Assembly (NCBI GenBank): GCA_964457265.1
Contig: CAYWEI010000003.1
Location: 3,732-43,597 of the forward strand
Direction: 5' to 3'
DNA: 39,866 nt
From: an uncultured Candidatus Saccharibacteria bacterium
Lineage (GTDB): Bacteria > Patescibacteriota > Minisyncoccia > Phycocordibacterales > Phycocordibacteraceae
The notes below the pieces were generated by a model. It saw only the letters and a list, made by a program, of their open reading frames with translations, did not search any database and was not told where the DNA came from. Position numbers and translations under genes: made by a program. Positions 23,088 through 36,750 of this stretch are shown here, piece by piece (position 1 is the stretch's first letter; each line of letters starts with the position of its first letter).

Positions 23088-24122
23088 ATGATTTTCTCAA
23101 GGACTATGGATCATTCTACTCACACGCTCCGCATCGTCATCGCTTCGGTCCTCGCGGTCCTGATGATCGGCGGCTCCTACGCGCTCTCGGGGCCGATACC
23201 GTTCTTCGGCGATATCCGCATCGCGAACGCGGAGAATTCCGCCGTGCTCCTGCGCGAGTACGCAGTGAAGGATTCTGATTCGGACGGCCTCTTCGATTGG
23301 CAGGAGTCGCTCTACGCTACCGACCCCCATGACGCAGAATCATTCAGGGCAGGGATAAAGGATGGCGATGCCGTGACACAGGGACTCATCCAGCCGAAAG
23401 TCAAGGTAGCTCCCGAGCCGTCCCTCGGAGACATATCGACCGTGCCCGGAAAGGATGTCGCGCCAGACACCATCACCGACCAGTTCGCCCAGGCGCTCTT
23501 CAAGCAGTACATGCTCACCCGAGGAGACACGCAGCCTACGGCGGAAGAGATCGCTACCTTCGTCGAGGAAGGAGTGCAGGGCATTTCCGAATCGAACGCT
23601 TCCCGGAATACTTTCTCGCTGTCTGACATGAAGAGTTCGGGAGCGACGGGGCCCGCGGCCATGCGTGCCTATATCCCCGTCGCTCAGCGCGCATTCGACG
23701 ATAACGACATAACGATGGCCAAGGACGAGCTTTCCTACTTCTCAGATGCGATGAAGGGAGATGCTGCGTCGTACCCGAAACTGAAAGAGATCAGCGCGGC
23801 ATACGCGCGCATAGCGCGGGCGTTCATCAAGGTGTCCGTGCCCGAAGAAGCTCGCGTCTCGCACCTCGCTATAGCGAATTCGCTCATGCACATGAGCAAG
23901 GTGAGCGCTGACATGGCTGCGATGGAATCCGATCCGTTGCGCGCGCTCATCGGCGTAGCCGAATATCAGCAGCGCCAGATAGAGATGCTTACCGGATTCT
24001 CCGGCCTGAGCGCGCTATTCGTGGCCCAGCAGATCGTGCTCACGCCCGACGAGCCCGGCTATGATTTCTATTCGACCAGTCTCAAGGCATCGCAGACTCT
24101 CATAGACCTGCGCGCACGATAA
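23088..24122 (+). CDS. N-terminally anchored extracytoplasmic protein, unknown function (first gene of the T4SS-like block)
   Basis: TM anchor LRIVIASVLAVLMIGGSYAL. Calcium-binding-like DSDSDGLFDWQESLYATDP motif. The rest is helical and unassigned. The true start could be MDHST at 23106. Confidence 0.6.
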   Translation: MIFSRTMDHSTHTLRIVIASVLAVLMIGGSYALSGPIPFFGDIRIANAENSAVLLREYAVKDSDSDGLFDWQESLYATDPHDAESFRAGIKDGDAVTQGLIQPKVKVAPEPSLGDISTVPGKDVAPDTITDQFAQALFKQYMLTRGDTQPTAEEIATFVEEGVQGISESNASRNTFSLSDMKSSGATGPAAMRAYIPVAQRAFDDNDITMAKDELSYFSDAMKGDAASYPKLKEISAAYARIARAFIKVSVPEEARVSHLAIANSLMHMSKVSADMAAMESDPLRALIGVAEYQQRQIEMLTGFSGLSALFVAQQIVLTPDEPGYDFYSTSLKASQTLIDLRAR

Positions 24123-24128
24123 TCCATT

Positions 24129-25544
24129 ATGGCCACTCTCTTACCGAAAAAGATCCTGAAAGGCGCGCTTACGCTGGTTCTTGTCGTCTCTCTTTCTGTT
24201 ACGGCAGTGCCTCGTCCTGCCCACGCGCTCTTCGGAGTTGGCGATACCATAGACGCTCTCTACTTCACTAAGGAATACTTAGTTGATCTCGTCGGGTGGC
24301 AGCTTGCAGAGGTGGCACGTGCCACTATCGTTAAGAGCATCATCAACTGGATAAACGGAGGATTCCAGGGTTCTCCTGCATTCGTCACCGACCTCAAGCA
24401 GAACCTGCGGGGCGTAGAGGACGCGGTCGCATCCCGCCTCTTCGCGGACCTCACCAATAACCTTGAAGCGGCGACGCCTTTCCAGAACAAAGTGATAGAC
24501 AGCGTGCGGCTCGGCTACTACCTCTCCACGAGCCCCGAATCGTTCTATACGAAGAATCCGTATACTCTCGATCAGGTGAGTCCCGACGATGAGGCGTTCC
24601 GTAACGGAGACTTCTCGCAGGGCGGATGGAACGCGTGGTTCGCCACGGTAATGAATCCCCAGAATAACCAGTTCGGGGCTGAAGCCACTCTCGATCGCGT
24701 GCTTACGAATTCCGTGAGCAGCGCGAGCGGACAGCGGCTTGAAGAGCTCTCGTGGGGCAAGGGCTTCATGTCGTGGCGTGGCGATTGCATCGCTACCAAG
24801 AGCCAGGGATCCGCGGCGGATGCCGTAGACCTCAGCGGGGAAGACCCCTGCATCGATTACGCGATACGCACGCCGGGAGGATGGATCTATGACCAAGGGA
24901 ACGGAGCAGTAGGGTCGAGCCTGGAGAAGCTCATCTCCGCCGACGAGCTCGATGAGATCATAGGCGCGCTCATGAATCAGCTGGTAAGCCGAGTGCTCGG
25001 GTCAGGAGGGGGAGGGGGAGGCCTGAGCGGCGTGTCGCGCCCCGCATCAGGAGGGGGAGCCGCCTACATCGATCAAGCCACTGCTTCCTCGGAGGCAGGC
25101 AGCGGCACGCCTTCCGCGAACGCTCCGGCGACTGGCGGGACATCTCTCGGAGATCAATTCAAGACGACTCTAGGAGAGCAGAAGAGCAATATGCTCGCCT
25201 ATAGCGCGGCCTGGGAGAAGATCCGGACGGAAGCACAGGCTGCCAAGCAGCGATGTGCAGCTGCATGGCCGCCCGCCGGTGTCATAAGCGAGGCGACCGC
25301 TGCCCTGACCAAGGCTGCGAACGCTCTCACCGCGATCGATACCATAAATGCGAAGATCCAGAGCGCGACTGCCGCAGGAGGAGACCAGACTCGCGTATAC
25401 GCTGAAGTAGCATCCGATTTCAATGCGATCGAATTCCCGAGCGCTAGCGAGTTCGCGCGAGGGATAGAGCAATCAGGAAACGAGGGGACGACGCTTTACA
25501 CCCAGATGACGAACATCACCTCCGCCACGTGCGTGGGAGGCTAG
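24129..25544 (+). CDS. secreted protein with a Gly-rich segment, unknown function
   Basis: Signal peptide ...VTAVPRPAHALFG and an internal GSGGGGGGLSGVSRPASGGG segment. It starts 6 nt after the upstream stop. Confidence 0.6.
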   Translation: MATLLPKKILKGALTLVLVVSLSVTAVPRPAHALFGVGDTIDALYFTKEYLVDLVGWQLAEVARATIVKSIINWINGGFQGSPAFVTDLKQNLRGVEDAVASRLFADLTNNLEAATPFQNKVIDSVRLGYYLSTSPESFYTKNPYTLDQVSPDDEAFRNGDFSQGGWNAWFATVMNPQNNQFGAEATLDRVLTNSVSSASGQRLEELSWGKGFMSWRGDCIATKSQGSAADAVDLSGEDPCIDYAIRTPGGWIYDQGNGAVGSSLEKLISADELDEIIGALMNQLVSRVLGSGGGGGGLSGVSRPASGGGAAYIDQATASSEAGSGTPSANAPATGGTSLGDQFKTTLGEQKSNMLAYSAAWEKIRTEAQAAKQRCAAAWPPAGVISEATAALTKAANALTAIDTINAKIQSATAAGGDQTRVYAEVASDFNAIEFPSASEFARGIEQSGNEGTTLYTQMTNITSATCVGG

Positions 25545-25557
25545 GTATCAATACCTT

Positions 25558-28110
25558 ATGATGTTTCGCTTCGTAAGACCGTTATTTAAAGGAAGCAACG
25601 TATCTTCTTGTCTATTCGTCGCGTTAGTTCTTTTGTCAGGAACATCTGCTCTCGTGCCTATTCCTGCATTGGCACAGACCTCGACAGATGAAGCGACAGC
25701 ACTCAGGCATTCGACGATCGATCATGCAATCTGCAGCGGCGCGGCGTGCCCGAGAACTAACATAGACGGGAGCGTAACGACCTGCGGGGGAGATTTAGGG
25801 TCAAACGGTACCTGCAAGGTCACGTTCAAGGATGGAACTTCGACCAAGATCGTTCCGGGCGGCGCCTTAGGGCAAGTAATAACGCATTACGCAAAGGATG
25901 GGATAACACCCATAGGAGAGAGAGACGAGACTAAGATCATTGCCGTTACCACAGGGGAGCAGAGCAAATCGAATGTGACCGCGGATGGAAGCGAGGTGGC
26001 GGAATGCGGCCTAAAGAATCCAGCGGCCTGCATCATGAACCTTCCGGGCATGCTTCTCTCGGCCATCGCCCTGTTCATGCTAGGGCTTGCAGGAGGCATT
26101 CTCGCGATTGCAGGAACGGTCTTCAACTGGGTGGTCATACGTACGGTCTACCAGTTCGGTACCTACTTCGGCACTTCGGAAGGAATGCTCACCGCCTGGG
26201 GCATCATGCGTGATATCGCCAACATCGGCCTCCTGTTCGGTTTCATACTCATGGGTGTGCTCCTCATCCTGAATGTCGAGGGCGGGGGACACGGCCACGG
26301 AGGGGGCATGAGCGCGAAGAAAGCGATACCTCGGCTCATCCTTTTCGCGGTTCTCCTTAATTTCAGCTTGTTCGCGTCCCAGGCCATCATTGATGTCGCC
26401 AATGCGTTCAGCTCCACCTTCGCCACGCTCGCGGGACAGCAGTGCGATGACGCGGCGACCGATGGCAAGAATGACGAGGGCAAGCAATCGGAAGAGACTT
26501 GCGCGAATGTGGGCATCTCGGGGCAGATAATCGAAGTGACGGGAATGTCGAAGATCTTCCAATCTATCGAGGAGAAGAACAATATCGGGCACTCGATAGC
26601 GACCAAGGCGTATTCCACCCCGATCATGCTTATCATGCTCACTATCTTCGTGCTGATAACGGCGATGGTCCTCCTTGCGGGAGCGATCATGCTCATTATC
26701 CGCGTCGTCATACTTTCTCTCCTGATGGTTACCGCGCCGATAGGGTTCGCGGGAATGGCGATCCCTAAGCTCTCGGGCCTCGCAAGCCAGTGGTGGAGCA
26801 AGCTTCTCTCCCAATCCTTCTTCGCTCCGGTCTATCTGCTCCTTATCTTCATCAGCATAAAGCTTTCAGAAGGTCTCATGCAGGGAGACGCCACCATCGC
26901 GGATGCTCTTATGGGTAACCAAGGCGCGAACGCTGCAGGTAACATGCAGGTCATCATGGTCTACATGATCGTCACGGGCTTCATGATCGCGTCTCTGGTC
27001 GCCGCTTCCAAGATGGGGGCGATGGGTGCGAAATTCGCCACCTCTACCGCAGCAGGCCTGACCGTCGGAGCGGTGGGATTTGCCGGACGTCGCACCGTCG
27101 GCGTTGCCTCCGGCAAGGTCGCTAACAGGATCGCCTCCTCGCAATGGGCGCGCAGCAACGGCTTCGGGAGCCAGCTTGCCCTGAAAACCTTCAATAAAGG
27201 GGCTTCTTCCAGCATGAGCGCGCGCACTGCGATTAATAGCGCGATGAAAGGCGCGGGCGTAGACATCGGCATGGGGAACGCGAGCAAGAATGTAGCGCAC
27301 GGCATCCATGGTATCGAAGAGGCAGAGATCAAGAAGCGTGTCGACTTCTCTGAGAAGGGACTGCGAAGGACTGAGGAAGAGATCAAGAAGGAGGAGGCCT
27401 TGAAAAACGAGAAGATTAAGCTTCAGAATTCTAAGGCTTACGAACAAACTCAGAGAAAGCGTATAGAAGCAGAGGAAGAGGCCGCGATGAGGAAAGCTCA
27501 GAGCGAAAACGAGCAGAATATGAAGCTCCGGCTCGCACAAATCGAAGTCCAGAAGGGAAGGGTCGCGGGCGCAGAATTTACTAAGGATACGGACCCTGAG
27601 GCGTTATTGAGCGAGAAACGCGATCTTGACCAGCTGCTACGAGACCACGAGACGGAAAGCAAGGCCGCTGCACAAGACATCGAAAGTCGGAAGGCCGCAG
27701 CTGAGAATACTAAGGCAGCTCATCAAGAGAACATGTCCCGGTTCGATACGAGGACCAGGGAAATAGATAGGGAAATCAAAGGCGGAAGCTACTTCAATGC
27801 AGAGACAGGCACGACAGATAAGTATGCTGGAGTATCAGCCGACGCTGTTAAGCGCCAATATGCCGAGAATATGGCACATCAGAAAGTCCCTATACCGTTC
27901 TCGGTGGGCACTCACATAAATCACGAAGCGTCTGAAAAGATCCTTAAGAAGCTGAACCGCTCTCAGAATGAGAAGCTCATTGATGCCATCAAGGAGACAG
28001 CGAAAGAGGAGAAGGATGCCAGCGACGACCACGATAAGAAAGATGACCATGGCGGAGGTGGCGACAGCCATGCACCGAAGGCGGGCGGGCATGGAGCGGA
28101 TCATCATTAA
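25558..28110 (+). CDS. VirB6/TrbL-like polytopic membrane protein with a Cys-rich ectodomain and a long cytoplasmic coiled-coil/His-rich tail
   Basis: 850 aa. Signal peptide, ~130-aa Cys-containing N-domain, at least six hydrophobic helices (residues ~165-500), ~250-aa Lys/Glu coiled-coil region, and a terminal KDDHGGGGDSHAPKAGGHGADHH. Confidence 0.68.
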   Translation: MMFRFVRPLFKGSNVSSCLFVALVLLSGTSALVPIPALAQTSTDEATALRHSTIDHAICSGAACPRTNIDGSVTTCGGDLGSNGTCKVTFKDGTSTKIVPGGALGQVITHYAKDGITPIGERDETKIIAVTTGEQSKSNVTADGSEVAECGLKNPAACIMNLPGMLLSAIALFMLGLAGGILAIAGTVFNWVVIRTVYQFGTYFGTSEGMLTAWGIMRDIANIGLLFGFILMGVLLILNVEGGGHGHGGGMSAKKAIPRLILFAVLLNFSLFASQAIIDVANAFSSTFATLAGQQCDDAATDGKNDEGKQSEETCANVGISGQIIEVTGMSKIFQSIEEKNNIGHSIATKAYSTPIMLIMLTIFVLITAMVLLAGAIMLIIRVVILSLLMVTAPIGFAGMAIPKLSGLASQWWSKLLSQSFFAPVYLLLIFISIKLSEGLMQGDATIADALMGNQGANAAGNMQVIMVYMIVTGFMIASLVAASKMGAMGAKFATSTAAGLTVGAVGFAGRRTVGVASGKVANRIASSQWARSNGFGSQLALKTFNKGASSSMSARTAINSAMKGAGVDIGMGNASKNVAHGIHGIEEAEIKKRVDFSEKGLRRTEEEIKKEEALKNEKIKLQNSKAYEQTQRKRIEAEEEAAMRKAQSENEQNMKLRLAQIEVQKGRVAGAEFTKDTDPEALLSEKRDLDQLLRDHETESKAAAQDIESRKAAAENTKAAHQENMSRFDTRTREIDREIKGGSYFNAETGTTDKYAGVSADAVKRQYAENMAHQKVPIPFSVGTHINHEASEKILKKLNRSQNEKLIDAIKETAKEEKDASDDHDKKDDHGGGGDSHAPKAGGHGADHH

Positions 28111-28122
28111 TACATTGCAAGC

Positions 28123-28938
28123 ATGAATCCGGAAGAAGATCTCACCGAATTAAATATCAATTCAGCGGTCAGCACCTTGATGAAGGAGCTCCCTAAGCCT
28201 GTGCAGGATTTCCTTGCAGGACCTGAGCGGGACCGCATATCGAACGAGCTTTCTCAGAAGCACCGCCTTCACGTAGATCAGGCAGGGGAGTTCGAGCGCG
28301 CATATTTATTCATGCTGCTCGGCATCATGTCGCCCAATGAGTTCGTCTCGACGCTTACGGAGGCAGGCATTGCGCCTGAAGCAGTGAGCGCCCTCGCTGC
28401 TGATGTGAACGAAATGGTCTTCATTCCGCTGCGGAAGAAGGAAAGGGACCCGAGATCAGCGATGCCCGCAGCTGCGATTCCGCAGAAACCAGCGCCCTTG
28501 CCGCCTCCTGCGATCGAGTACAAGCCTGCTCCAGTGACTCTCCCTGGTTCTGACGTTCCGGCACCCATGCCAGCAATGAGTCAAACACCGCAGCACCTTG
28601 CCGCGCAGCCGGTCGTCGCGCCTGCGCCTATCGTGCCAGAGCAGCACTTCGTCCAGTCCATGCCCGGAGCCGGAGTTCACCAGCCCGGCTGGCACCCTGC
28701 TGCAGCGGTGCATATATATGTACCGGCCCACGCTGCGCCCCAGCAGCAGGCTGCCTACGTGCCGAGCGCACCTATGCCTGAACCGGCTGCCGCACCTCTA
28801 CCTGCACCTGCTCCGGTCTATATTCCCCCGGCACCGCCTGCACCTGCGCCGCAACCCGTAACTATCATGCCTTCGGCGGTGAGCATCCCTATAAAGAAGG
28901 AATTCGGTGCGGATCCCTATCGAGAACCGATCGCATAG
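28123..28938 (+). CDS. protein with a small helical N-domain and a Pro/Ala-rich C-terminal half, unknown function
   Basis: 271 aa. The C-terminal ~160 aa are PAP/PxP low complexity. It starts 12 nt after the upstream stop. Confidence 0.55.
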   Translation: MNPEEDLTELNINSAVSTLMKELPKPVQDFLAGPERDRISNELSQKHRLHVDQAGEFERAYLFMLLGIMSPNEFVSTLTEAGIAPEAVSALAADVNEMVFIPLRKKERDPRSAMPAAAIPQKPAPLPPPAIEYKPAPVTLPGSDVPAPMPAMSQTPQHLAAQPVVAPAPIVPEQHFVQSMPGAGVHQPGWHPAAAVHIYVPAHAAPQQQAAYVPSAPMPEPAAAPLPAPAPVYIPPAPPAPAPQPVTIMPSAVSIPIKKEFGADPYREPIA

Positions 28939-28958
28939 AGGATATTTCCCCGCATTCC

Positions 28959-28995
28959 ATAACCGCCCGCTAAGGAATTCCTTAGCGGGCGGTTA
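28959..28995 (+). promoter_or_regulatory. perfect 37-nt palindrome (17-bp stem) inside the block; possible intra-operon attenuator or processing site
   Basis: ataaccgcccgctaagg-aat-tccttagcgggcggttat... It overlaps the TATACT at 28994-28999, which lies 7 nt before the next ATG. Confidence 0.45.
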
Positions 28996-29006
28996 TACTT
29001 ATACCG

Positions 29007-29429
29007 ATGGAGTACCAAGTACCGCAGTTCATCGAGGTCGAGGATAAGATCTTCGGACCCTTCACGCTCAAGCAGTTCATCTATGTAGCCGGCGGCATCG
29101 GCCTCTGCGCGATCCTTCTCCTCTACCTCCCGCTGATATTCGGCATCATACTCGCGATCCCGGTCGCGGCGCTCACGGGCGCGCTCGCGTTCTACCGCGT
29201 GAACAACAAGCCGTTCGTGGAGATAATGGAAGCCGCGTTCAATTATTATCTGAAGGATCATCTCTACCTCTGGAAGAAGGAGAAGCCGCAGGTACAGGCT
29301 CCCGTAGCAGGCCCCATCGCGGCGAACGCTTCCGAGGACCGCGCGAAGATTGGCATGTCCCAGAGCCGTCTTCAGGAACTCGCGTGGTCGCTCGATATAA
29401 AGGACCGTGACCCGGACGCTAAAGCATAG
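29007..29429 (+). CDS. PrgI/VirB3-like small two-helix membrane protein
   Basis: 140 aa. QFIEVEDKIFGPFTLKQFIYVAGGIGLCAILLLYLPLIFGIILAIPVAALTGALAF is the PrgI-family hairpin pattern. The gene lies upstream of the VirB4-type ATPase. Confidence 0.65.
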   Translation: MEYQVPQFIEVEDKIFGPFTLKQFIYVAGGIGLCAILLLYLPLIFGIILAIPVAALTGALAFYRVNNKPFVEIMEAAFNYYLKDHLYLWKKEKPQVQAPVAGPIAANASEDRAKIGMSQSRLQELAWSLDIKDRDPDAKA

Positions 29430-29434
29430 ATCTC

Positions 29435-30076
29435 ATGGCAACCCCTAAAGCTACCCAGTCCTTCGTTCCCGTAAAGGAAGTCCGTAACGGCGTCGTCATT
29501 CTCAAGAACGACGGGTACCGCGGCATCCTCATGTGCTCCTCCATAAACTTCGCCCTCAAGGGAGAGGACGAGCAGCGGGGCATCATCGGCGGATTCCAGA
29601 GCTTCCTCAATACGCTCGATTTCACCGTCGAGATCGTCGTCCATTCCCGGAAGATGGATGTACGCCCGTATCTGGCGCTCCTTGAGAGCCGCGTGGTCGC
29701 GCAGACGACAGAGCTCATGCGTCTCCAGCTCCGCGAGTACGAGCAGTTCATCCGCAGCTTCATCGACACGAACGACATCATGACCAAGATGTTCTATGTC
29801 GTGGTGCCGTATTCGCCATCCGGTCGCGGGGAAGTGGCGAACGCGATCTCGTTCCTCGGGAAGGGAGGCGCGCGCCGTACCGGGAATTCAGGGCCCGACA
29901 GCTCGTTCGAGGAGAATCGAGTGCAGCTCGAGCAGCGCATGGCGCTCGTAGTCTCAGGACTTGCCGCGAGCGGGGTGCGTGCAGTGCCGCTCGGTACCGA
30001 GGAAGTGATAGAGCTCCTCTATCGGTCATTCAACCTGAGCGAGCTCGAGAGCCCTATACGCCTCACGAACGCGTAA
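29435..30076 (+). CDS. soluble 213-aa protein, unknown function (possible VirB4 N-domain-like module)
   Basis: SFVPVKEVRNGVVILKNDGYRGILMCSSINFALKGEDEQRGIIGGFQSFLNTLDFTVEIVV resembles, from memory, the N-terminal pattern of Gram-positive VirB4/TcpF-type ATPases. It has no Walker motifs. Confidence 0.5.
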   Translation: MATPKATQSFVPVKEVRNGVVILKNDGYRGILMCSSINFALKGEDEQRGIIGGFQSFLNTLDFTVEIVVHSRKMDVRPYLALLESRVVAQTTELMRLQLREYEQFIRSFIDTNDIMTKMFYVVVPYSPSGRGEVANAISFLGKGGARRTGNSGPDSSFEENRVQLEQRMALVVSGLAASGVRAVPLGTEEVIELLYRSFNLSELESPIRLTNA

Positions 30077-30131
30077 CGCATGACAGCCTCGCAGCCTCGC
30101 CCCGAACTACCAATCACTACTCTTTCCTGAT

Positions 30132-31949
30132 ATGGCCCTCCTCGATTTCCTCGGCAAGAATAAGAAGGACGACACCCCGGCGATAACCGCGGTGCTCCCG
30201 AAAGACATCTACGCTGAGGGCGAGCTGCAGCTGGCGGACGCCATCGCGCCTGCGGCGCTCAAGGTGGGCGCGCGCGAGATCGAGCTCGGCGAGAAGTTCT
30301 CCCGCTCTTTCTACACCATCTCCTATCCGCGCTTCCTCGTGGATAGCTGGTTCAGCCCTATCATCAACATGGATAAGGTGATGGATATCGGGCTTTTCAT
30401 ACACCCTCTCGAGACCGGCACCGCGCTTCGCGGCTTCCAGAAGAAGGTTGCCGAGATAGAGAGCCAGATCTCAGACAGGGAAGAGAAGGGTCTCGTGCGC
30501 GACCCGATGCTCGATACCGCCTATCGCGACCTCGAGCAGCTCCGCGATCAGCTCCAGCAGGCAGAAGAGCACATCTTCGAAGTGGGTCTCTATCTCACTA
30601 TCTATGGCAATTCGAAGGAAGAGCTCGATAAGGTGGAGGCCGAGGTGCGCGGCATCCTCGACGCGAAGCTGGTCTACACGAAGCCGGCGCTCTTCCAGCA
30701 GGAGCAGGGATTCCGCTCGACCTTGCCGCTCGCGCTCGACGAGCTCGAAGTGACCAGCAAGCTCAACTCAGCACCCCTTTCTTCGCTCTTCCCGTTCGTC
30801 TCCTTCGACCTCACGAGCGATCGCGGCATCCTGTACGGGATCAATCGCCACAACTCCTCGCTCATACTTTTCGACCGTTTCTCGCTCGAGAACTACAATT
30901 CGGTCGTCTTCGCGAAGTCGGGTTCCGGAAAGTCATACGCGGTCAAGCTCGAGATCCTGCGCTCGCTCATGTTCGGGACGGATGTCATCGTCATAGACCC
31001 TGAGCGCGAGTATGAGAACCTGGCGAGCGCCACGGGCGGAAGGACATTCAACATATCCCTCTCATCCGAGCATCACATCAACCCTTTCGATCTTCCTCCC
31101 GTGAAAGAGGACGAGGAGCCGGCGGATATCCTGCGCAGCAACATCATCAACCTCGTGGGCCTCTTCCGTATCATGCTCGGCGGACTCTCTCCGGAAGAGG
31201 ACGCGATCATCGACCGCGCCATCACCGAGACCTATGCGCTCAAGGACATCACGGGCGATGCGGACTTCACGGGAGTCGAGCCGCCGCTCCTTTCGGATTT
31301 CGAGAACGTGCTTTCGGGCATGGAAGGCTCCGAATCGCTCGTCACGAGGCTCTCGAAGTACACGCACGGCACCTGGTCAGGGTTCCTGAACCAGCCGACC
31401 AATATAGATATAAACAAGCAGTTCATCGTGTTCTCTGTCCGGGACATGGAGGACGAGCTGAAGCCGGTGGCGATGTACATCATCACGCACTTCATCTGGA
31501 ATGCGATCCGCCATGAGCTGAAGCAGCGCCTGCTCGTGATCGACGAGGCATGGTGGATGATGAAATCGGAAGATACGGCATCGTTCCTCTTCAGCATCGC
31601 CAAGCGCGGCCGCAAGTACTTCCTCGGCCTCGCGACTATCACCCAGGACGTGGAGGACTTCCTCCGTTCGCCCTACGGCCGGCCGATCCTTACGAACTCC
31701 TCGATGCAGCTGCTGCTCAAGCAGTCGCCGACCACCATCAACGTGCTCCAAGAGACATTCAACCTGACTGACCAGGAGAAGTTCCTGCTGCTCGAGTCAG
31801 GAGTGGGGGAGGGGCTCTTCTTCGCAGGCCTCAAGCACGTAGCCATAAAGGTCGTGGCTTCCTACACCGAAGACCAGATCATCACGTCGGACCCGTCACA
31901 GCTTCTCCAGATACGGCAAGAGAAATCCCGCAACGAAGCGGGCGGATAG
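30132..31949 (+). CDS. VirB4/TrbE/TraC-family type IV secretion ATPase
   Basis: Walker A VVFAKSGSGKSY, Walker B LLVIDEAWWMM (IDEAW hallmark), and an N-domain with YPRFLVDSWF. 605 aa. Confidence 0.9.
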   Translation: MALLDFLGKNKKDDTPAITAVLPKDIYAEGELQLADAIAPAALKVGAREIELGEKFSRSFYTISYPRFLVDSWFSPIINMDKVMDIGLFIHPLETGTALRGFQKKVAEIESQISDREEKGLVRDPMLDTAYRDLEQLRDQLQQAEEHIFEVGLYLTIYGNSKEELDKVEAEVRGILDAKLVYTKPALFQQEQGFRSTLPLALDELEVTSKLNSAPLSSLFPFVSFDLTSDRGILYGINRHNSSLILFDRFSLENYNSVVFAKSGSGKSYAVKLEILRSLMFGTDVIVIDPEREYENLASATGGRTFNISLSSEHHINPFDLPPVKEDEEPADILRSNIINLVGLFRIMLGGLSPEEDAIIDRAITETYALKDITGDADFTGVEPPLLSDFENVLSGMEGSESLVTRLSKYTHGTWSGFLNQPTNIDINKQFIVFSVRDMEDELKPVAMYIITHFIWNAIRHELKQRLLVIDEAWWMMKSEDTASFLFSIAKRGRKYFLGLATITQDVEDFLRSPYGRPILTNSSMQLLLKQSPTTINVLQETFNLTDQEKFLLLESGVGEGLFFAGLKHVAIKVVASYTEDQIITSDPSQLLQIRQEKSRNEAGG

Positions 31950-31952
31950 CGC

Positions 31953-32453
31953 ATGGCAGCGCCGCACAAGATCGGGAACGTCACTGCGGGATTCATGATC
32001 GCCCTTGCAGCGAGCGTCGATGTCTTGCAGGCCCTCCTTACGTTCTCCGTAGTGCTTCTTCCTTTCTCGCTATTCCTCTCATTCCTCAGCTTCATCGTAT
32101 TCGGCCTATGGTTCCTGCTTCTCGGCGCCTATTCAGGCCAAGGGAGCTCGAAACGGCTCATGACCTCGGCAGGAGCCATGGTAATCGAGATCGTGCCGTT
32201 CCTGAGCATGCTGCCGGCGACTACGGCAGGCGTCCTCAGCACTATCGTACAGACCCGCGTAGCGGATTCGCTCGCGTCCCGCGTAGGCACTGACCCCCGG
32301 AAACTGCAGGCGGTCGAGCGCCTGCAGCGTCAGAAAGCGGCCCAGAGGCAGCGAGCAGATTCGATGCGGTCGGATCGCGAGCAAGCTCAGGAGGAGAAGC
32401 ATTCTCCGGCTAACGACAACGAGGAGGGAGGCTCCTTGCGCGAAGCGGCATAG
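31953..32453 (+). CDS. small multi-pass membrane protein with a charged C-terminal tail
   Basis: Three or four hydrophobic helices, followed by a QRQKAAQRQRADSMRSDREQAQEEK tail. It starts 3 nt after the ATPase stop. Confidence 0.55.
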   Translation: MAAPHKIGNVTAGFMIALAASVDVLQALLTFSVVLLPFSLFLSFLSFIVFGLWFLLLGAYSGQGSSKRLMTSAGAMVIEIVPFLSMLPATTAGVLSTIVQTRVADSLASRVGTDPRKLQAVERLQRQKAAQRQRADSMRSDREQAQEEKHSPANDNEEGGSLREAA

Positions 32454-32506
32454 GCTACCCACGGCGGCTTCGGTCCCTGCCGCCATCGGCGGTATATACT
32501 ACGGAC

Positions 32507-33496
32507 ATGCGTTTCTTCATCGTGTTTCTCGCTCTTGCCGCTCTCTTTTCATATACGACGCCCGTCGTCGCGCAGGGAATCCCGGGCGCAGAGACGATCA
32601 CCGTCGCGCTCACTCCCGATTATCCGCGACCCTACCAGGTAGTGCACCTCACCCCGGGCAGCACGGTGCTCAATCTTTCCGCGGTCACCGTCACTATCAC
32701 CGTGAACGGCACCAAGATATACGAAGGAAGCGGTACGGGTGGCGCTGATTTCCAGGTGGGCGCAGCAGGAGAGAAGACGACCGTCGTAACCTCAGTCAGG
32801 GATGCATCCGGGGGAGTGACTAGCGTCACGAACGTCATACGGCCGGCCGAAGTCTCGCTCATCGTCGAGCCGGTCTCGACTACGCATCCGTTCTACAAGG
32901 GCGCGAGCCTGGTGGCCTCGGAAGGCACGGTGCGCCTGGTCGCTATCGCCGATATGCGTTCATCGACGGGGGCCCGCATCCCATCCTCGAGCCTCGTATA
33001 TACCTGGCGTCTGGGCGAGCGTGTCCTTACCGACGTATCCGGTATCGGGAAATCAGTGATAACGACTACCGCTCCCGTCCGGTACCGGAACGCGCCTATC
33101 ACCGTCACCGTGACGAACGCGGACAGTTCGCTCGTAGGGGAGGCGAGCGCTCTCGTGTCTGCTACCGATCCGGCGGTCCGCATCTATCGGAACGATCCGT
33201 TGCTCGGACCCGACTACGACACGGCGATCAGCGGGAAATTCTCTATGCCCGACACAGAAGCTACGTTCCGTTCGGTAGGCTACTTCTTCGCCGTACCGCC
33301 TATATTCGCGTGGAGCGTGAACGGTTCGGCGAGCGGTAACGACAAGGACATCACTGTACGCGCGACGGGGAGCGGGAAGGGCGTAGCCCAGCTCCGGCTC
33401 GCCGCTGATGAGCGGGCGCATTATCAGTCTGCAGAGCAGAGAGTCTCCGTGGAGTTCGGGGCAGGGAAGGGAGCGCTCGGCATATTCGGCCTATAA
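32507..33496 (+). CDS. secreted beta-rich protein, unknown function
   Basis: Signal peptide MRFFIVFLALAALFSYTTPVVAQG, then a Thr/Val/Ser-rich sequence suggesting Ig-like beta domains. Confidence 0.55.
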   Translation: MRFFIVFLALAALFSYTTPVVAQGIPGAETITVALTPDYPRPYQVVHLTPGSTVLNLSAVTVTITVNGTKIYEGSGTGGADFQVGAAGEKTTVVTSVRDASGGVTSVTNVIRPAEVSLIVEPVSTTHPFYKGASLVASEGTVRLVAIADMRSSTGARIPSSSLVYTWRLGERVLTDVSGIGKSVITTTAPVRYRNAPITVTVTNADSSLVGEASALVSATDPAVRIYRNDPLLGPDYDTAISGKFSMPDTEATFRSVGYFFAVPPIFAWSVNGSASGNDKDITVRATGSGKGVAQLRLAADERAHYQSAEQRVSVEFGAGKGALGIFGL

Positions 33497-33499
33497 TCT

Positions 33500-34243
33500 A
33501 TGAAATACCTACGATACGTTCCGTTCCTGCTCCTGCTCCTGGTGCCCATGGCGACGCTCGCTGCGGCTGACACCTCCTTCGTTCCTCTTACGAACGTACC
33601 GTTCCTCGAAAAGGCAGGCGATGCTCAGAATCTCCCTGAGTTCCTCAACCAGCTCTATCGCATCTGCATCGGGCTCGCAGCCGTGCTCGCCGTGCTGCAG
33701 ATCATGCGTGCGGGCGTCATGTATATGGGAAGCGACAGCGGCTTCGCGGAGAAGAAAGAGGCGAAGAACCTCATCGGGCTCGCGATCGGCGGACTGATCC
33801 TGGTCCTTTCCCCCGTCGTCGTATTTTCAATCATCAATCCCGACATACTGAGCCTCAAGATAGAAGGGATCGAAGACTTGAGACCGAAGAATGACGTCGG
33901 AGCGACCTCGGGCGATGGTCTGAGCACTGAGATATCGGACGGAGACACTACCACCGCATGCAAAGCGAAGGGAGGAAAAGCTGCTCTGTTCTGCGGAAGC
34001 ACTGCGAACGGCACCCAGGATGTACTGGCAGGGAACACCTGTCCGACCGGAAGCTCCCTCAAGACGAGTTGCGGCGTCTCTACAACCGTCCCTACCCAGT
34101 GCTCGCTCTATGATCCGAGCTCCGCAGAATTCAGTCTCGCCGAGGGCATGCAATCATGTTCCGCAGACAAGGAGAGCGTGAATGCCGAGTGCTGCCAGCA
34201 GAACGTCCGGCCAGGATACGTATGCTGCATGAAGAAGAAATAA
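33500..34243 (+). CDS. VirB2/TrbC-like pilin candidate with a 10-Cys C-terminal extension
   Basis: Signal peptide (…ATLAAAD). Two hydrophobic helices (ICIGLAAVLAVLQIM and LIGLAIGGLILVLSPVVVFSII) separated by a short charged loop. A ~120-aa tail then carries 10 Cys and ends CCMKKK. Confidence 0.55.
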   Translation: MKYLRYVPFLLLLLVPMATLAAADTSFVPLTNVPFLEKAGDAQNLPEFLNQLYRICIGLAAVLAVLQIMRAGVMYMGSDSGFAEKKEAKNLIGLAIGGLILVLSPVVVFSIINPDILSLKIEGIEDLRPKNDVGATSGDGLSTEISDGDTTTACKAKGGKAALFCGSTANGTQDVLAGNTCPTGSSLKTSCGVSTTVPTQCSLYDPSSAEFSLAEGMQSCSADKESVNAECCQQNVRPGYVCCMKKK

Positions 34244-34244
34244 T

Positions 34245-35477
34245 ATGAACCGCCGTATCCTCATCATCGTAGCGGGTGCAATCGTCGTCCTCGGCATCAT
34301 CGCGGCGCTCTATTTCTTCGTGTTCGCGCCGGGAGCGAAGCTGGACGTCGATACGACAGGCTCATTCGGCAGCAGCGGCGACCGCGAGCCGGGGGAAATC
34401 TCCGACGGGGGACCGATACAAGGGGCGGGAGTCGTGGTCGCGCCGCGCCTGATGCGTATCACGGACGGCCCGGTCGCCAAGGGAGCCGTCGCTATCTATA
34501 TCCCGCCCGCTGTCATCTCTTCGTCCACTACCACCGCGACCTCGACGCAGCAGACCGCGCCTGCTGACGTGGAGGTGCGCTACATCGAGCGAGAGAGCGG
34601 TAACGTGTTCTCGTTCCTCGTGCATGACCGGCTCCAGACCCGCATAAGCAACCGGACGCTCCCGGGCGTACAGGAAGCCTCGTGGACGAGCGACGGGAAG
34701 CGCGCCTTCGCTCAGTTCCTCACGCGAGCGAGCGGCGGCGCCGAGCATGTCGACACCTATTCGCTCTCTGCCAACGGAGACGACGACGGCTACTTCATGG
34801 AACAGGGCCTGGAACAGGTGATAGTGAACGGGACGAGCACCGTCTTCTCGCTCCTGCCGTCGAGCACCGGCTCTACCGGTACGCTCTCGGCGCCTGACGG
34901 CACAGGAAGCCGGACGGTGTTCACCTCAGCGCTCACTCAGATGCGCGCCGCGTTCTCGGGCGCGGATCTCGTAATGACCACCAAAGCGTCCGCGACGGCT
35001 GATGGGTATGCATTCCTCGTAAACCGCACGAGCGGCTCCTTCTCGCGCCTCTTGGGGCCGTTCAAGGGCCTCACGTCGCTCGCAGACCCTACCGGCCGGT
35101 CGGTCCTGTTCAGCTATATGGATAAAGGGAAGCTCTATACGCAGGTACTGAACATCGCGGCGCACACCGTGACGCCTCTTCCGCTCGCGACCCTTTCCGA
35201 GAAGTGCGCATGGAGCGCTGACGGGCGCGCAGTCTATTGCGCCGTGCCGACTTCGCTCGGGAAGAATCTTCCGGACGACTGGTATCAGGGAGTCTCCGCT
35301 TTCACTGACCGCATATGGCGCATCGATCTCGACACCCGTCTCGCGACCTTGCTAGTCGATCCGAGCCAGGTAGCGGAAGTCACCATAGACGCCGTCTCGC
35401 TCACGCTCGATAGCCAGAGCGACGTGCTCATATTCACGAATCGCCGTGACGGATCTCTCTGGAGCTACGACCTTTAG
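34245..35477 (+). CDS. N-terminally anchored extracytoplasmic protein, possibly beta-propeller-like, unknown function
   Basis: Anchor ILIIVAGAIVVLGIIAALYFFVF, then a ~370-aa beta-rich domain. It starts 1 nt after the upstream stop. Confidence 0.55.
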   Translation: MNRRILIIVAGAIVVLGIIAALYFFVFAPGAKLDVDTTGSFGSSGDREPGEISDGGPIQGAGVVVAPRLMRITDGPVAKGAVAIYIPPAVISSSTTTATSTQQTAPADVEVRYIERESGNVFSFLVHDRLQTRISNRTLPGVQEASWTSDGKRAFAQFLTRASGGAEHVDTYSLSANGDDDGYFMEQGLEQVIVNGTSTVFSLLPSSTGSTGTLSAPDGTGSRTVFTSALTQMRAAFSGADLVMTTKASATADGYAFLVNRTSGSFSRLLGPFKGLTSLADPTGRSVLFSYMDKGKLYTQVLNIAAHTVTPLPLATLSEKCAWSADGRAVYCAVPTSLGKNLPDDWYQGVSAFTDRIWRIDLDTRLATLLVDPSQVAEVTIDAVSLTLDSQSDVLIFTNRRDGSLWSYDL

Positions 35478-35494
35478 CACGGAGCTGAAGATAT

Positions 35495-35522
35495 GAAAAA
35501 CGCCGCATATGCGGCGTTTTTC
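35495..35522. terminator. bidirectional rho-independent terminator closing the block and yidC
   Basis: gaaaaacgccgc-atat-gcggcgtttttc. Confidence 0.75.
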
Positions 35523-35526
35523 ATAT

Positions 35527-36613: not shown

Positions 36614-36750
36614 TAGACAGTGAGCTTAGCGCGGCCCTTGCGGCGGCGGCGTAGCAGCACGTTGCGGCCAGTCGAGGTGGCTGTACGGGCACGGAAACCG
36701 TGGGTCCGGGCGCGCTTGCGCTTCTTCGGCTGATAGGTGCGCTTAGGCAT
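36613..36750 (-). CDS. rpmH: 50S ribosomal protein L34
   Basis: Not in the ORF track because it is under 60 aa. My translation of the reverse strand gives [45 protein letters not shown]. Confidence 0.93.

What the first reader, a model, noticed from the sequence alone, without database searches (positions are those of the whole stretch)
23088..35477. Eleven-gene T4SS-derived envelope machine in core chromosome, with no relaxase, coupling protein, VirB11 or outer-membrane core, and seven unassignable components
Seen directly:
- All 11 ORFs are on the plus strand with gaps of 1-70 nt (24122/24129, 25544/25558, 28110/28123, 29429/29435, 31949/31953, 33496/33500, 34243/34245).
- The block ends at a strong bidirectional terminator (35495-35522).

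Recognisable parts:
- A VirB4-type ATPase (30132-31949; Walker A GSGKS, Walker B IDEAW).
- A VirB6/TrbL-style polytopic protein (25558-28110).
- A PrgI/VirB3-style two-helix protein (29007-29429).
- A VirB2/TrbC-style pilin candidate (33500-34243).

The other seven products (23088, 24129, 28123, 29435, 31953, 32507, 34245) are signal-peptide, anchored, multi-pass or Pro/Ala-rich proteins that match no family I recognise.

Absent from the whole window: relaxase, VirD4/TcpA-type coupling ATPase, VirB11, VirB7/9/10, an integrase adjacent to the block, and flanking direct repeats.

The block lies between rsmA and the yidC-rnpA-rpmH-dnaA origin genes, so it does not look like ICE or plasmid cargo.

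Inference: a minimised monoderm T4SS-like pilus, secretion or DNA-uptake apparatus of the kind expected in reduced-genome episymbionts. Most of its subunits are uncharacterised.
Basis: partly seen in the sequence, partly recalled or inferred. Interest (0 to 1): 0.82.

Follow-up and report, generated by a model that had tools for sequence, protein, structure and literature searches.

The report
Known chromosomal secretion machine of Patescibacteria
The eleven-gene block is real, but it is the chromosomal type IV secretion system of ultra-small Patescibacteria (here a Paceibacteria genome), already described in 2023-2025 papers, so it is a good example of a known system rather than a discovery.

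Summary
Eleven co-directional, tightly packed ORFs (23088-35477) end at a strong hairpin terminator. They lie between uvrD-rsmA and yidC-rnpA-rpmH-dnaA-dnaN.

Profile searches confirm these parts:
- a PrgI/VirB3 protein (ORF5);
- a VirB4 ATPase of the CD1110 (monoderm) type (ORF7);
- a VirB6/TrbL protein (ORF3, through its orthologues);
- a VirB2-type pilin (ORF10; 26 of 30 orthologues hit T4SS_pilin).

ORF9 is a secreted protein with tandem Ig-like domains. ORF1 carries a bacterial TSP3 repeat. ORF2, ORF4, ORF8 and ORF11 remain unassigned.

The closest VirB4 relatives are all Parcubacteria/Paceibacteria. The whole block, with its origin-proximal neighbours, is collinear in dozens of species-level genomes. 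VirB4 is more conserved than DnaA in 48 of 51 loci. No relaxase, coupling protein, adjacent integrase or att repeats are present.

This matches the Patescibacteria T4SS described by Wang et al. 2023 and Quinonero-Coronel et al. 2025. Small additions from this work:
- an invariant C-terminal DPYRE(P) peptide on ORF4;
- a large unnamed ORF2 family;
- a clade in which the block is split in two.

The parts
23088..24122 (+). ORF1 (344 aa). N-terminal membrane anchor, one bacterial thrombospondin-type-3 (calcium-binding) repeat (DSDSDGLFDWQE), then an all-helical extracytoplasmic domain. Function unassigned.
   Evidence: The TM segment at residues 16-34 was found. Orthologues hit PF18884 TSP3_bac and one source names the protein a TSP3-repeat protein. 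The AF2 model has pLDDT 82 and is all-alpha. No significant PDB fold match was found; R388 VirB5/VirB6 stalk chains appear only at E 0.7-1. Present in 32 of 43 loci with enough upstream flank, outside the split clade.
24129..25544 (+). ORF2 (471 aa). Hydrophobic N-terminal segment consistent with a signal peptide, so probably secreted. All-helical, with a confident C-terminal helical bundle (residues 340-465). It belongs to a large unnamed family. Function unassigned.
   Evidence: No Pfam, NCBIfam or PDB sequence hit. The AF2 model has pLDDT 65 overall and above 90 for residues 340-465. No significant fold match. A profile of the family finds 5413 50%-cluster representatives, 2379 of them at E<=1e-30. 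One orthologue passes the Pfam threshold for PF13605 DUF4141 at its N-terminus (33.7 bits against 30, E 2.4e-8) and two score just below it. DUF4141 proteins lie between traG (VirB4) and traJ in Bacteroides conjugative transposons.
25558..28110 (+). ORF3 (850 aa). Extended VirB6/TrbL-type polytopic membrane protein: a hydrophobic N-terminal segment (signal-peptide-like), a Cys-containing outer domain, about 6 TM helices, and a long charged coiled-coil C-terminal tail.
   Evidence: TM segments were found. Its own best hit is only NCBIfam Mbov_0396 ICE TM protein, E 7.6e-4, below the cut-off. Six of 30 syntenic orthologues hit PF04610 TrbL/VirB6 (best 1.9e-7). The tail gives only coiled-coil-type PDB hits. 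Present in 43 of 43 loci outside the split clade.
28123..28938 (+). ORF4 (271 aa). No signal peptide or TM segment. A small conserved N-terminal domain, a variable Pro/Ala-rich linker, and an invariant C-terminal DPYRE(P) peptide. Candidate cytoplasmic adaptor or substrate.
   Evidence: Alignment A8 shows D264, P265, Y266 and E268 invariant. The motif DP[YF]RE occurs 53 times in the six-frame ORFs of 80 loci, and 51 of these lie within the last 15 residues of an ORF. All 51 listed C-terminal hits sit in the slot between the VirB6 and PrgI genes. No Pfam or meaningful PDB hit.
29007..29429 (+). ORF5 (140 aa). PrgI/VirB3-type small membrane protein.
   Evidence: Pfam PF12666 PrgI, E 2.1e-10, 41.5 bits, above the cut-off of 27. 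Present in 49 of 49 loci.
29435..30076 (+). ORF6 (213 aa). TrsD/TraC-like protein that matches the N-terminal part of VirB4-family models, encoded as a separate gene.
   Evidence: NCBIfam matches to the N-terminal part of VirB4 models: VirB4_plasma positions 102-233 (7.9e-7), CD1110 positions 2-118 (3.6e-4), TrsD (5.7e-3). ORF7 covers CD1110 positions 183-733 only. The orthologue in L081 carries precomputed PF26593 TraC-like. It is a separate ORF in 76 loci, with 42 invariant columns. No PDB sequence hit.
30132..31949 (+). ORF7 (605 aa). VirB4-family ATPase of the monoderm (CD1110/MPF-FATA-like) type, the motor of the machine.
   Evidence: NCBIfam conju_CD1110, 2.1e-111, 373.5 bits, above the cut-off of 325. 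Pfam TraG P-loop 1.5e-25, AAA_10, DUF87. PDB 4ag5 VirB4 1.6e-45 and TrwK 8.6e-8. Walker A and B motifs present. Identity to relatives in 80 species-level loci is 71-91%.
31953..32453 (+). ORF8 (166 aa). Small protein with about three predicted TM helices and a charged tail. Fast-evolving and unassigned.
   Evidence: TM segments were found. Only chance-level family or PDB hits. Detectable in 15 of 51 loci by BLAST, always directly after virB4. Not related to the pilin profile.
32507..33496 (+). ORF9 (329 aa). Hydrophobic N-terminal segment consistent with a signal peptide, so probably secreted, followed by tandem Ig-like beta-sandwich domains. Likely a surface or cell-wall-spanning part.
   Evidence: The family profile hits the Ig-like T4 Hoc protein (3shs, 1.5e-5). 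A few orthologues hit Ig_3, BiPBP_C, PKD_6 and Cadherin-like. Present in 51 of 51 loci.
33500..34243 (+). ORF10 (247 aa). VirB2-type T4SS pilin core (N-terminal signal-peptide-like segment, TM1, Lys loop, TM2 ending in INP) with a variable Cys-rich C-terminal extension.
   Evidence: Its own Pfam hits are TrbC 4.1e-4 and T4SS_pilin 4.3e-4, both below the cut-offs. Of 30 orthologues, 26 hit PF18895 T4SS_pilin (best 3e-11) and 4 hit TrbC. Alignment A7 shows a conserved core and a variable tail.
34245..35477 (+). ORF11 (410 aa). N-terminal membrane anchor plus a large extracytoplasmic domain that may be a beta-propeller. It has invariant Cys321 and Cys332. Unassigned.
   Evidence: The TM segment at residues 5-23 was found. 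Only 1 of 30 orthologues hits PD40 and 1 of 30 hits DUF5050. No PDB sequence hit. Present in 51 of 51 loci.
35489..35528 (.). Bidirectional intrinsic terminator shared by the block and the convergent yidC gene.
   Evidence: An 18-bp perfect palindrome flanked by an A-run and a T-run; dG -29.9 kcal/mol, z -8.96.

Best explanation
[quoted passage not shown] It derives from monoderm (MPF-FATA-type) conjugation machinery but has been uncoupled from DNA-transfer functions.

Shown here:
- A PrgI/VirB3 protein, a VirB4 ATPase whose model-matching region is divided between two genes (a TrsD/TraC-like N-terminal piece and the ATPase), an extended VirB6, and one VirB2-type pilin.
- Six further conserved envelope or cytoplasmic proteins.
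- All of these are kept in one order next to the replication-origin genes across the class.

Inferred mechanism:
- VirB3 and VirB6 form the membrane platform.
- The VirB4 hexamer, with the TrsD-like piece, powers extraction of the pilin from the membrane and its assembly into a filament or conduit.
- The secreted or anchored proteins ORF1, ORF2, ORF9 (Ig-like) and ORF11 build the part that crosses the wall and touches the host cell. They would stand in for the missing VirB7/9/10 and VirB8.
- The apparatus serves contact with the host bacterium, most likely pilus-dependent export of proteins, rather than conjugation.

The functional importance is taken from the homologous cluster of Southlakia epibionticum, which is essential for epibiotic growth.
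For: Component identities:
- PrgI scores above the Pfam cut-off.
- VirB4 scores above the NCBIfam CD1110 cut-off. The ranking of models is CD1110 373 bits, Mycoplasma ICE VirB4 248, F-type TraC 196, VirB4_CagE 131. PDB VirB4 4ag5 gives 1.6e-45.
- ORF6 matches the model region that ORF7 lacks.
- VirB6 is assigned through 6 of 30 orthologues.
- The pilin is assigned through 26 of 30 orthologues.

Taxon: the best VirB4 relatives (85-94% identity) are named Parcubacteria, Paceibacterota or Patescibacteria. At least 595 species-level genomes carry a relative.

Core and vertical inheritance:
- The order uvrD-rsmA-[11 genes]-yidC-rnpA-dnaA-dnaN is collinear in the loci with enough flank.
- ORF5, 6, 7, 9 and 11 are present in 49/49 or 51/51 loci. 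VirB6 is present in 43/43 loci outside one clade.
- Median VirB4 identity is 74% against 54% for DnaA and 37% for DnaN. VirB4 is more conserved than DnaA in 48 of 51 loci.

Not a mobile element: no relaxase, T4CP or adjacent integrase, no flanking repeats, and no GC anomaly.

Literature:
- The same system and context are described in PMC12102498.
- The Southlakia cluster SEML1_0006-0019 is essential, has the same PrgI-hypothetical-VirB4 order plus VirB6 and PF18895 pilins, and lacks a coupling protein and relaxase.
- A review covers the system in PMC12857230.
Against: - No experiment exists for any Paceibacteria T4SS. Essentiality and host-contact function are extrapolated from a different class (Saccharimonadia).
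- No substrate is known.
- ORF3's own sequence does not reach any VirB6 threshold, and ORF10's does not reach the pilin thresholds. Both rest on orthologues.
- The proposed wall-spanning role of ORF1, 2, 9 and 11 is inference from localisation signals and synteny only. The AF2 models of ORF1 and ORF2 gave no significant fold match, and ORF9 and ORF11 were not modelled.
- A coupling protein or relaxase elsewhere in the genome cannot be excluded from a 40-kb window. PMC12102498 reports VirD4 homologues in many Patescibacteria, far from virB4.
- In one clade (L010-L018) the first four genes, including VirB6, are not next to the rest.
Confidence: 0.85

Rival explanations
1. The machine imports DNA or other host macromolecules, as the archaeal Ced system or the Helicobacter ComB system do. 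It would feed a cell that cannot make nucleotides.
For: - No relaxase or coupling protein lies in the window.
- ORF7 has weak partial similarity to the CedB DNA-import ATPase (4.6e-10, 38.7 bits).
- comM lies 5 kb upstream in the window, and comEC lies directly upstream of the PrgI-VirB4 half in the L010 clade.
- PMC12102498 notes that competence and recombination genes lie near T4SS loci in class ABY1.
Against: - The CedB score is far below its cut-off of 700, and CD1110-type conjugative VirB4 scores ten times higher.
- In Southlakia, competence depends on type IV pili and ComEC. Deleting comEC abolishes transformation without loss of viability, whereas the T4SS is essential. The T4SS therefore does something other than ComEC-dependent uptake (PMC12857230 citing Wang 2023).
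- No CedA-like or ComB-specific parts were detected.
Confidence: 0.1
2. The block is a decaying or domesticated remnant of an integrated conjugative element that has lost its relaxase, coupling protein and integrase. It would have no current cellular role.
For: - VirB4 is closest to conjugative monoderm families (CD1110, Mycoplasma ICE).
- Weak hits of ORF3 and ORF10 are to Mycoplasma ICE proteins Mbov_0396 and Mbov_0395.
Against: - All 11 ORFs are intact.
- The block sits at the same chromosomal site, in the same order, in dozens of species-level genomes.
- VirB4 is more conserved than DnaA.
- There are no att repeats, no adjacent integrase and no GC deviation.
- The homologous cluster is essential in Southlakia.
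Confidence: 0.02
3. The machine only builds an adhesive VirB2-type pilus for attachment to the host and translocates nothing beyond its own pilin.
For: - A VirB2-type pilin with a variable, Cys-rich outer extension sits in the block.
- VirB4 is the pilus-assembly ATPase in known systems (established knowledge).
- No coupling protein lies nearby.
- Pilin genes are essential in Southlakia.
Against: - Patescibacteria already use type IV pili for adhesion (PMC12206443, listed).
- The block keeps an extended VirB6 and six extra conserved proteins, more than pilus assembly is known to need.
- ORF4 looks like a cytoplasmic adaptor or substrate with a docking peptide.
Confidence: 0.15

Closest known systems
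Patescibacteria-clade chromosomal T4SS as surveyed by Quinonero-Coronel et al. 2025 (PMC12102498), Paceibacteria class
   Same: - VirB4 with monoderm (MPF-FATA) affinity.
- A TrsD-like gene and a PrgI/VirB3 gene directly upstream of virB4.
- VirB6 and a VirB2-like pilin nearby.
- No relaxase and no coupling protein near virB4.
- Location beside dnaA, dnaN, rnpA, rpmH and ksgA/rsmA.

   Different: Nothing essential. This window is one more genome of that kind. It has a single pilin gene rather than an array. The six conserved accessory genes (ORF1, 2, 4, 8, 9, 11) are not among the named T4SS components in the sections of that paper read here.
Southlakia epibionticum ML1 T4SS, SEML1_0006-0019 (Wang et al. 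2023, PMC10633639)
   Same: - The order PrgI - hypothetical (TrsD-like) - VirB4.
- Large VirB6/TrbL-like proteins.
- PF18895 pilins.
- No recognisable coupling protein or relaxase in the cluster.
- It is the only member with genetic evidence, being essential for epibiotic growth.

   Different: - It belongs to a different class (Saccharimonadia).
- It has six tandem pilin genes against one here.
- It has an NTF2-like (VirB8-like) protein, SEML1_0012; none was detected here.
- Peptidase and lysozyme genes lie downstream of its virB4. Here, a TM protein, an Ig-like protein, the pilin and an anchored protein occupy that position.
Monoderm conjugative T4SS of the MPF-FATA class (pCF10 Prg, pGO1 Trs, CTn2 CD1110, Mycoplasma ICE)
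   Same: - VirB4 passes the CD1110 family threshold.
- PrgI passes its family threshold.
- A TrsD-like protein is present, as in pGO1.
- There is no outer-membrane core (VirB7/9/10).

   Different: - No relaxase, coupling protein, oriT-type context, integrase or mobility.
- It has a VirB2-type pilin, which Gram-positive systems normally lack.
- It sits at a fixed chromosomal site.
T4SSs that work without a coupling protein (Bordetella Ptl, Brucella VirB) and DNA-uptake T4SSs (ComB, archaeal Ced)
   Same: They work like this block may work: a VirB4-driven envelope machine with no dedicated VirD4 in the cluster.
   Different: Those are diderm or archaeal systems with other core parts. ORF7 scores only 38.7 bits against CedB, whose cut-off is 700.

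Membership tests
Type IV secretion system (defined by VirB4) | VirB4-family ATPase with intact Walker A and B motifs | tested here: met
   NCBIfam CD1110 VirB4-like, 373.5 bits, above the cut-off of 325. PDB 4ag5, 1.6e-45. Motifs GSGKS and IDEAW present.
Type IV secretion system (defined by VirB4) | VirB3-type small membrane partner | tested here: met
   PF12666 PrgI, 41.5 bits, above the cut-off of 27.
Type IV secretion system (defined by VirB4) | VirB6/TrbL polytopic channel protein | tested here: inconclusive
   ORF3 itself has only a sub-threshold hit (Mbov_0396, 7.6e-4, 19 bits against a cut-off of 70). Six of 30 syntenic orthologues hit PF04610 TrbL (best 1.9e-7). The topology fits.
Type IV secretion system (defined by VirB4) | VirB2-type pilin | tested here: met
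   ORF10 itself is below threshold (4e-4). However, 26 of 30 orthologues hit PF18895 (best 3e-11), and the two-TM core is conserved.
Patescibacteria-clade chromosomal T4SS (PMC12102498) | The host genome is a patescibacterium | tested here: met
   The closest VirB4 relatives (85-94% identity) and the 80 syntenic loci carry titles such as Parcubacteria, Paceibacterota, Kaiserbacteria, Patescibacteria or, for many, uncultured Candidatus Saccharibacteria; a few are only called bacterium.
Patescibacteria-clade chromosomal T4SS (PMC12102498) | VirB4 falls in the monophyletic Patescibacteria clade nested in MPF-FATA | not tested
   No tree with reference VirB4 sequences was built. The only proxies are that the best-scoring family is CD1110, a monoderm type, and that nearly all named top hits among those scored are Patescibacteria (one of the 120 listed is labelled Bacillota).
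Patescibacteria-clade chromosomal T4SS (PMC12102498) | TrsD-like gene associated with virB4 | tested here: met
   ORF6 matches the N-terminal part of VirB4 models and TrsD. Its orthologue carries PF26593 TraC-like. It is adjacent to virB4 in 76 loci.
Patescibacteria-clade chromosomal T4SS (PMC12102498) | No relaxase or coupling protein near virB4 | tested here: met
   None found among the window ORFs scanned. The rest of the genome is not available.
Patescibacteria-clade chromosomal T4SS (PMC12102498) | Location next to dnaA, dnaN, rnpA, rpmH and ksgA | tested here: met
   for the window. The same neighbours are present in 50 of 51 loci for dnaA.
Integrative conjugative element or conjugative plasmid | Relaxase plus coupling protein | tested here: not met
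   Absent from the 40-kb window.
Integrative conjugative element or conjugative plasmid | Integrase and att repeats at the borders; variable presence among relatives | tested here: not met
   No adjacent integrase and no flanking repeats. The block is fixed at one site in dozens of species-level genomes.
Archaeal Ced DNA-import system | CedB-type ATPase and CedA membrane proteins | tested here: not met
   CedB equivalog scores 38.7 bits against a cut-off of 700. No CedA-like hit.
VirB8/PrgL/TcpC (NTF2-like) component of monoderm T4SS | N-terminal TM segment plus an NTF2-like domain | tested here: inconclusive
   ORF1 is all-helical in the AF2 model, so it is not NTF2-like. No sequence hit.

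The most novel reading that the evidence does not exclude
The conserved accessory genes are not filler. They would be a lineage-specific module that replaces the missing parts of a canonical T4SS.
- ORF1, ORF2, ORF9 and ORF11 would form a new wall-spanning or host-contact structure.
- ORF4 is a signal-less protein with a disordered Pro-rich linker and an invariant C-terminal DPYRE(P) peptide. It would be a tethered adaptor that docks on VirB4 or on the VirB6 tail and substitutes for a coupling protein. Alternatively, it is the first recognisable substrate of the machine.
- The ORF2 family (over 5000 50%-cluster representatives) would then be a widespread T4SS component that has not been named.
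Probability: 0.25. Interest if true: 0.6.

Novelty: already known. Interest (0 to 1): 0.3.

Why it matters
The Patescibacteria T4SS is of real current interest. It is the first T4SS shown to be essential for its owner, it carries pilins in a monoderm, and its substrate is unknown. This window is a clean Paceibacteria example, but it adds no new kind of system.

Three by-products of this check could help those working on the mechanism:
- A list of six accessory proteins strictly conserved with the core.
- A conserved C-terminal DPYRE(P) peptide on ORF4, which gives a concrete binding hypothesis to test.
- A quantitative measure of constraint: VirB4 is more conserved than DnaA.

Tried and rejected
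- **Structure of two orphans.** AF2 models of ORF2 (pLDDT 65) and ORF1 (pLDDT 82) were searched against the PDB with Foldseek. There was no hit at E<=0.001, only generic helical bundles. R388 VirB5/VirB6 stalk chains appeared for ORF1 at E 0.7-1 with probability 0.06-0.15, which was rejected as not significant.
- **Profile searches against PDB sequences.** Profiles for ORF2, 3, 4, 6, 8 and 11 gave nothing meaningful. The ORF3 hits are coiled-coil noise from the tail. The ORF4 hit to \"CAM1\" (E 0.042) looks like a low-complexity helical match and was rejected.
- **Profile-profile comparisons among orphans.** ORF8 against the pilin, ORF1 against ORF2, and ORF9 against ORF11 showed no relationship.
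- **Promoter and terminator scan of the block.** Counts were no higher than in shuffled sequence, and the scan missed the real terminator.
- **Rfam.** Only the four tRNAs were found.
- **Direct repeats flanking the block.** Only short chance matches inside genes.
- **ORF2 as a VirB5/TrbJ-like or TraI-like protein.** Considered on the basis of the DUF4141 hits in orthologues. The match covers only about 35 N-terminal residues overlapping the signal-peptide region, so it is kept as a hint only.
- **LysM-M23 peptidase (18082-19272) as part of the machine (VirB1 analogue).** Not included, because it lies on the other strand beyond uvrD-rsmA and could be a housekeeping enzyme.

Full report
**Observation**

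The gaps between them are 1-68 nt.

The block ends 12 nt before a perfect 18-bp palindrome, GATATGAAAAACGCCGC-ATAT-GCGGCGTTTTTCATATC (35489-35528). An A-run precedes it and a T-run follows. It folds at -29.9 kcal/mol with z = -8.96 against shuffles. It can therefore terminate both the block and the convergent yidC gene.

The flanking genes are as stated:
- upstream, a UvrD-type helicase (with an intein) and rsmA/ksgA;
- downstream, yidC, rnpA, rpmH (36613-36756, minus strand), dnaA and dnaN.

The GC content of the block (0.54-0.63) is the same as in the rest of the window. No direct repeats bracket it.

**Recognisable parts**

- **ORF5** passes the Pfam threshold for PrgI, the VirB3 equivalent of monoderm systems (E 2.1e-10, 41.5 bits against a cut-off of 27).
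- **ORF7** passes the NCBIfam threshold for the CD1110 family of VirB4-like conjugal ATPases (E 2.1e-111, 373.5 bits against 325). Scores fall for the Mycoplasma ICE VirB4 (248), F-type TraC (196), VirB4/CagE (131) and Bacteroidetes TraG (63). It matches the solved VirB4 C-terminal domain 4ag5 at 1.6e-45. It has the GSGKS and IDEAW motifs.
- **ORF3** has a signal-peptide-like N-terminus, a Cys-containing outer domain, about six TM helices and a roughly 350-residue charged coiled-coil tail. It does not itself reach any VirB6 threshold: there is no Pfam hit, and the NCBIfam Mbov_0396 ICE TM protein scores 7.6e-4. Six of 30 syntenic orthologues hit PF04610 TrbL/VirB6, best 1.9e-7. I therefore accept it as an extended VirB6.
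- **ORF10** is just below the Pfam thresholds for TrbC/VirB2 and T4SS_pilin (4e-4 each). Of 30 orthologues, 26 hit PF18895 T4SS_pilin, best 3e-11. The alignment shows a conserved core (signal peptide, TM1, Lys loop, TM2 ending in INP) followed by a variable, often Cys-rich, extension.

**The seven "orphans"**

- **ORF6 is not an orphan.** It matches the N-terminal part of VirB4 models: VirB4_plasma positions 102-233 at 7.9e-7, CD1110 positions 2-118 at 3.6e-4, and TrsD at 5.7e-3. ORF7 covers only positions 183-733 of the CD1110 model. Its orthologue in a close relative carries the precomputed Pfam family PF26593 "TraC-like". It is a separate, highly conserved ORF in 76 loci, with 42 invariant columns. 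This is the TrsD-like protein that PMC12102498 reports as the most abundant T4SS component in Patescibacteria.
- **ORF9** is probably secreted and has tandem Ig-like domains. The family profile hits T4 Hoc at 1.5e-5, and there are scattered Ig_3, BiPBP_C, PKD and Cadherin-like hits in orthologues.
- **ORF1** has a membrane anchor and one bacterial TSP3 calcium-binding repeat. The rest is an all-helical domain modelled at pLDDT 82, with no significant fold match.
- **ORF2** is probably secreted and all-helical. It has a confident C-terminal bundle but no significant fold match. Its family is large: 5413 50%-cluster representatives, 2379 of them at E<=1e-30. One orthologue passes the threshold for DUF4141 at its N-terminus and two score just below it. 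DUF4141 proteins are encoded between traG (VirB4) and traJ in Bacteroides conjugative transposons. This is a hint only.
- **ORF11** has a membrane anchor and a large outer domain that may be a beta-propeller, with one PD40 and one DUF5050 hit among 30 orthologues.
- **ORF8** is a small, fast-evolving protein with about three predicted TM helices and no assignment.
- **ORF4** has no signal peptide or TM segment. It consists of a small conserved N-terminal domain, a variable Pro/Ala-rich linker and an invariant C-terminal DPYRE(P) peptide. The motif DP[YF]RE occurs 53 times in the six-frame ORFs of 80 related loci. Of these, 51 lie within the last 15 residues of an ORF, and all 51 sit in the slot between the VirB6 and PrgI genes.

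**Origin and conservation**

The closest VirB4 relatives (85-94% identity) are annotated Parcubacteria, Paceibacterota or Patescibacteria. A scan of one genome per species found at least 595 genomes with a relative. The best 80 carry titles such as Paceibacterota, Parcubacteria, Kaiser-, Taylor-, Adler- or Zambryskibacteria, or uncultured Candidatus Saccharibacteria.

In those loci the order uvrD-rsmA-[ORF1…ORF11]-yidC-rnpA-dnaA-dnaN is collinear. A close relative (GCA_002398375.1) shows the same gene calls plus one extra small gene.

Among loci with enough flank:
- ORF5, 6, 7, 9 and 11 are present in 49/49 or 51/51;
- the pilin is present in 46/51;
- VirB6 is present in 43/43 outside one clade;
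- dnaA follows in 50/51.

Median identity to the window is 74% for VirB4, against 54% for DnaA and 37% for DnaN. VirB4 is the more conserved of the two in 48 of 51 loci. This is the signature of a core, strongly constrained, vertically inherited gene set, not of cargo.

There is one exception. In the clade L010-L018 the PrgI-to-ORF11 half stays next to yidC-dnaA, but ORF1-ORF4 are not within 10 kb, even by HMM search. The upstream genes there are pgk, recJ, a CYTH-domain gene, comEC, sod and an M50 peptidase. The block thus behaves as two modules.

**Absences**

All window ORFs of 300 aa or more, and several smaller ones, were scanned. They include MgsA, two peptidoglycan-binding proteins, a trypsin-like protease, the CCA-adding enzyme, Xth, a XerC/D-type recombinase 10.7 kb upstream, a Band-7 protein, ComM and a LysM-M23 peptidase. 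None is a relaxase, VirD4/TcpA, VirB11 or VirB7/9/10. The rest of the genome cannot be checked from this window.

**Comparison with what is known**

This is the system described in three papers.
- Wang et al. 2023 (PMC10633639) found an unusual T4SS cluster in Southlakia epibionticum. It has a Gram-positive-like composition, essential pilins, and no recognisable coupling protein or relaxase, and it is essential for epibiotic growth. Their tables show the same PrgI - hypothetical - VirB4 order, large VirB6-like proteins and PF18895 pilins.
- Quinonero-Coronel et al. 2025 (PMC12102498) surveyed 3,035 genomes. They report a monophyletic Patescibacteria VirB4 clade nested in MPF-FATA; TrsD, PrgI/VirB3, VirB6 and VirB2-like pilins near virB4; almost no relaxases; and, in Paceibacteria and Microgenomatia, proximity to dnaA, dnaN, rnpA, ksgA and rpmH.
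- The 2025 FEMS review repeats this.

**Mechanism**

Shown: the parts list, their order, their conservation and the lack of DNA-processing genes nearby.

Inferred:
- VirB3 and VirB6 form the membrane platform.
- The VirB4 hexamer, with its TrsD-like partner, energises pilin extraction and assembly.
- ORF1, 2, 9 and 11 form the wall-crossing and host-contact part.
- ORF4 acts as a cytoplasmic adaptor or as a substrate.

I commit to a host-contact, pilus-dependent export function rather than conjugation. My confidence in that functional statement is about 0.5, against about 0.9 for the identity of the system.

DNA or nutrient import remains possible. The Southlakia result counts against it: loss of ComEC abolishes competence but not viability, whereas the T4SS is essential. 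A decaying ICE remnant is excluded by the synteny and conservation data.

**Verdict**

The system is already known, so interest is low to moderate. The residual value lies in:
- the conserved accessory proteins;
- the DPYRE(P) C-terminal peptide;
- the size of the ORF2 family;
- the two-module split in one clade;
- the degree of constraint on VirB4.

Noticed in passing
window 28123-28938 (ORF4); L001-L080, slot between the VirB6 and PrgI genes: ORF4 ends in an invariant DPYRE(P) peptide after a variable Pro-rich linker. In the related loci, 51 of 53 occurrences of DP[YF]RE lie within the last 15 residues of an ORF, and all 51 sit in this one syntenic slot. It looks like a tethered docking motif. 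No partner is known.
   Followed up: partly
window 19608-22244 (+): The UvrD/PcrA-type helicase (878 aa) carries an intein (Intein_splicing and Hint hits at residues ~251-491) between its helicase domains. The orthologue in the close relative L081 is 641 aa and shows no intein family, so the intein is a variable insertion.
   Followed up: partly
L010-L018 (for example L010 1-9000): In one Paceibacteria clade (VirB4 80-83% identical), ORF1-ORF4, including VirB6, are not within 10 kb upstream of PrgI. The genes there are pgk, recJ, a CYTH-domain gene, comEC, sod and an M50 peptidase. The block therefore splits into two modules. The location of the first module in those genomes is unknown.
   Followed up: partly
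window 30132-31949 compared with 36852-38201, across L001-L080: VirB4 is more conserved than DnaA in 48 of 51 loci (median identity 74% against 54%; DnaN 37%). This is unusually strong constraint for a secretion ATPase.
   Followed up: yes
window 18082-19272 (-): A LysM + M23 peptidase gene lies just upstream of uvrD. Homologues occupy the same position in L004, L051 and L056. PMC12102498 notes that some VirB1 homologues in Patescibacteria carry LysM or M23 as additional domains, so this could be the wall-opening enzyme of the machine or a housekeeping enzyme.
   Followed up: partly
window 3514-4410 (-) and 4525-5475 (-): Two paralogous proteins with PG_binding_1 and DUF4398 domains. Homologues sit between rsmA and ORF1 in L019, L068, L075 and L079, so in some lineages they lie inside the T4SS neighbourhood.
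   Followed up: no
window 14311-15990 (+): A 559-aa protein with a long Pro/Ala-rich N-terminal half, one TM segment and a C-terminal domain. It has no Pfam hit, and the local GC content is 0.61-0.63.
   Followed up: no
window 11454-12413 (-): A tyrosine recombinase with an N-terminal SAM-like domain (XerC/D type) lies 10.7 kb upstream of the block. It is most likely the chromosome-dimer resolvase and not an element integrase.
   Followed up: no
L081 8447-8872 (+): The close relative GCA_002398375.1 has an extra 141-aa gene between the ORF4 and PrgI orthologues. This gene has no counterpart in the window, where the gap is only 68 nt.
   Followed up: no
window 33500-34243 (ORF10), residues ~115-247: The VirB2-type pilin carries a C-terminal extension of about 130 residues with ten cysteines. 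In orthologues this extension varies greatly in length and sequence (total lengths 106-555 aa). That is unusual for VirB2 pilins and suggests a variable exposed surface.
   Followed up: partly
window 5948-8584 (-): Four tRNA genes on the minus strand (Gly-TCC, Pro-TGG, Gly-GCC, Arg-TCG). No other Rfam family is found in the window.
   Followed up: yes
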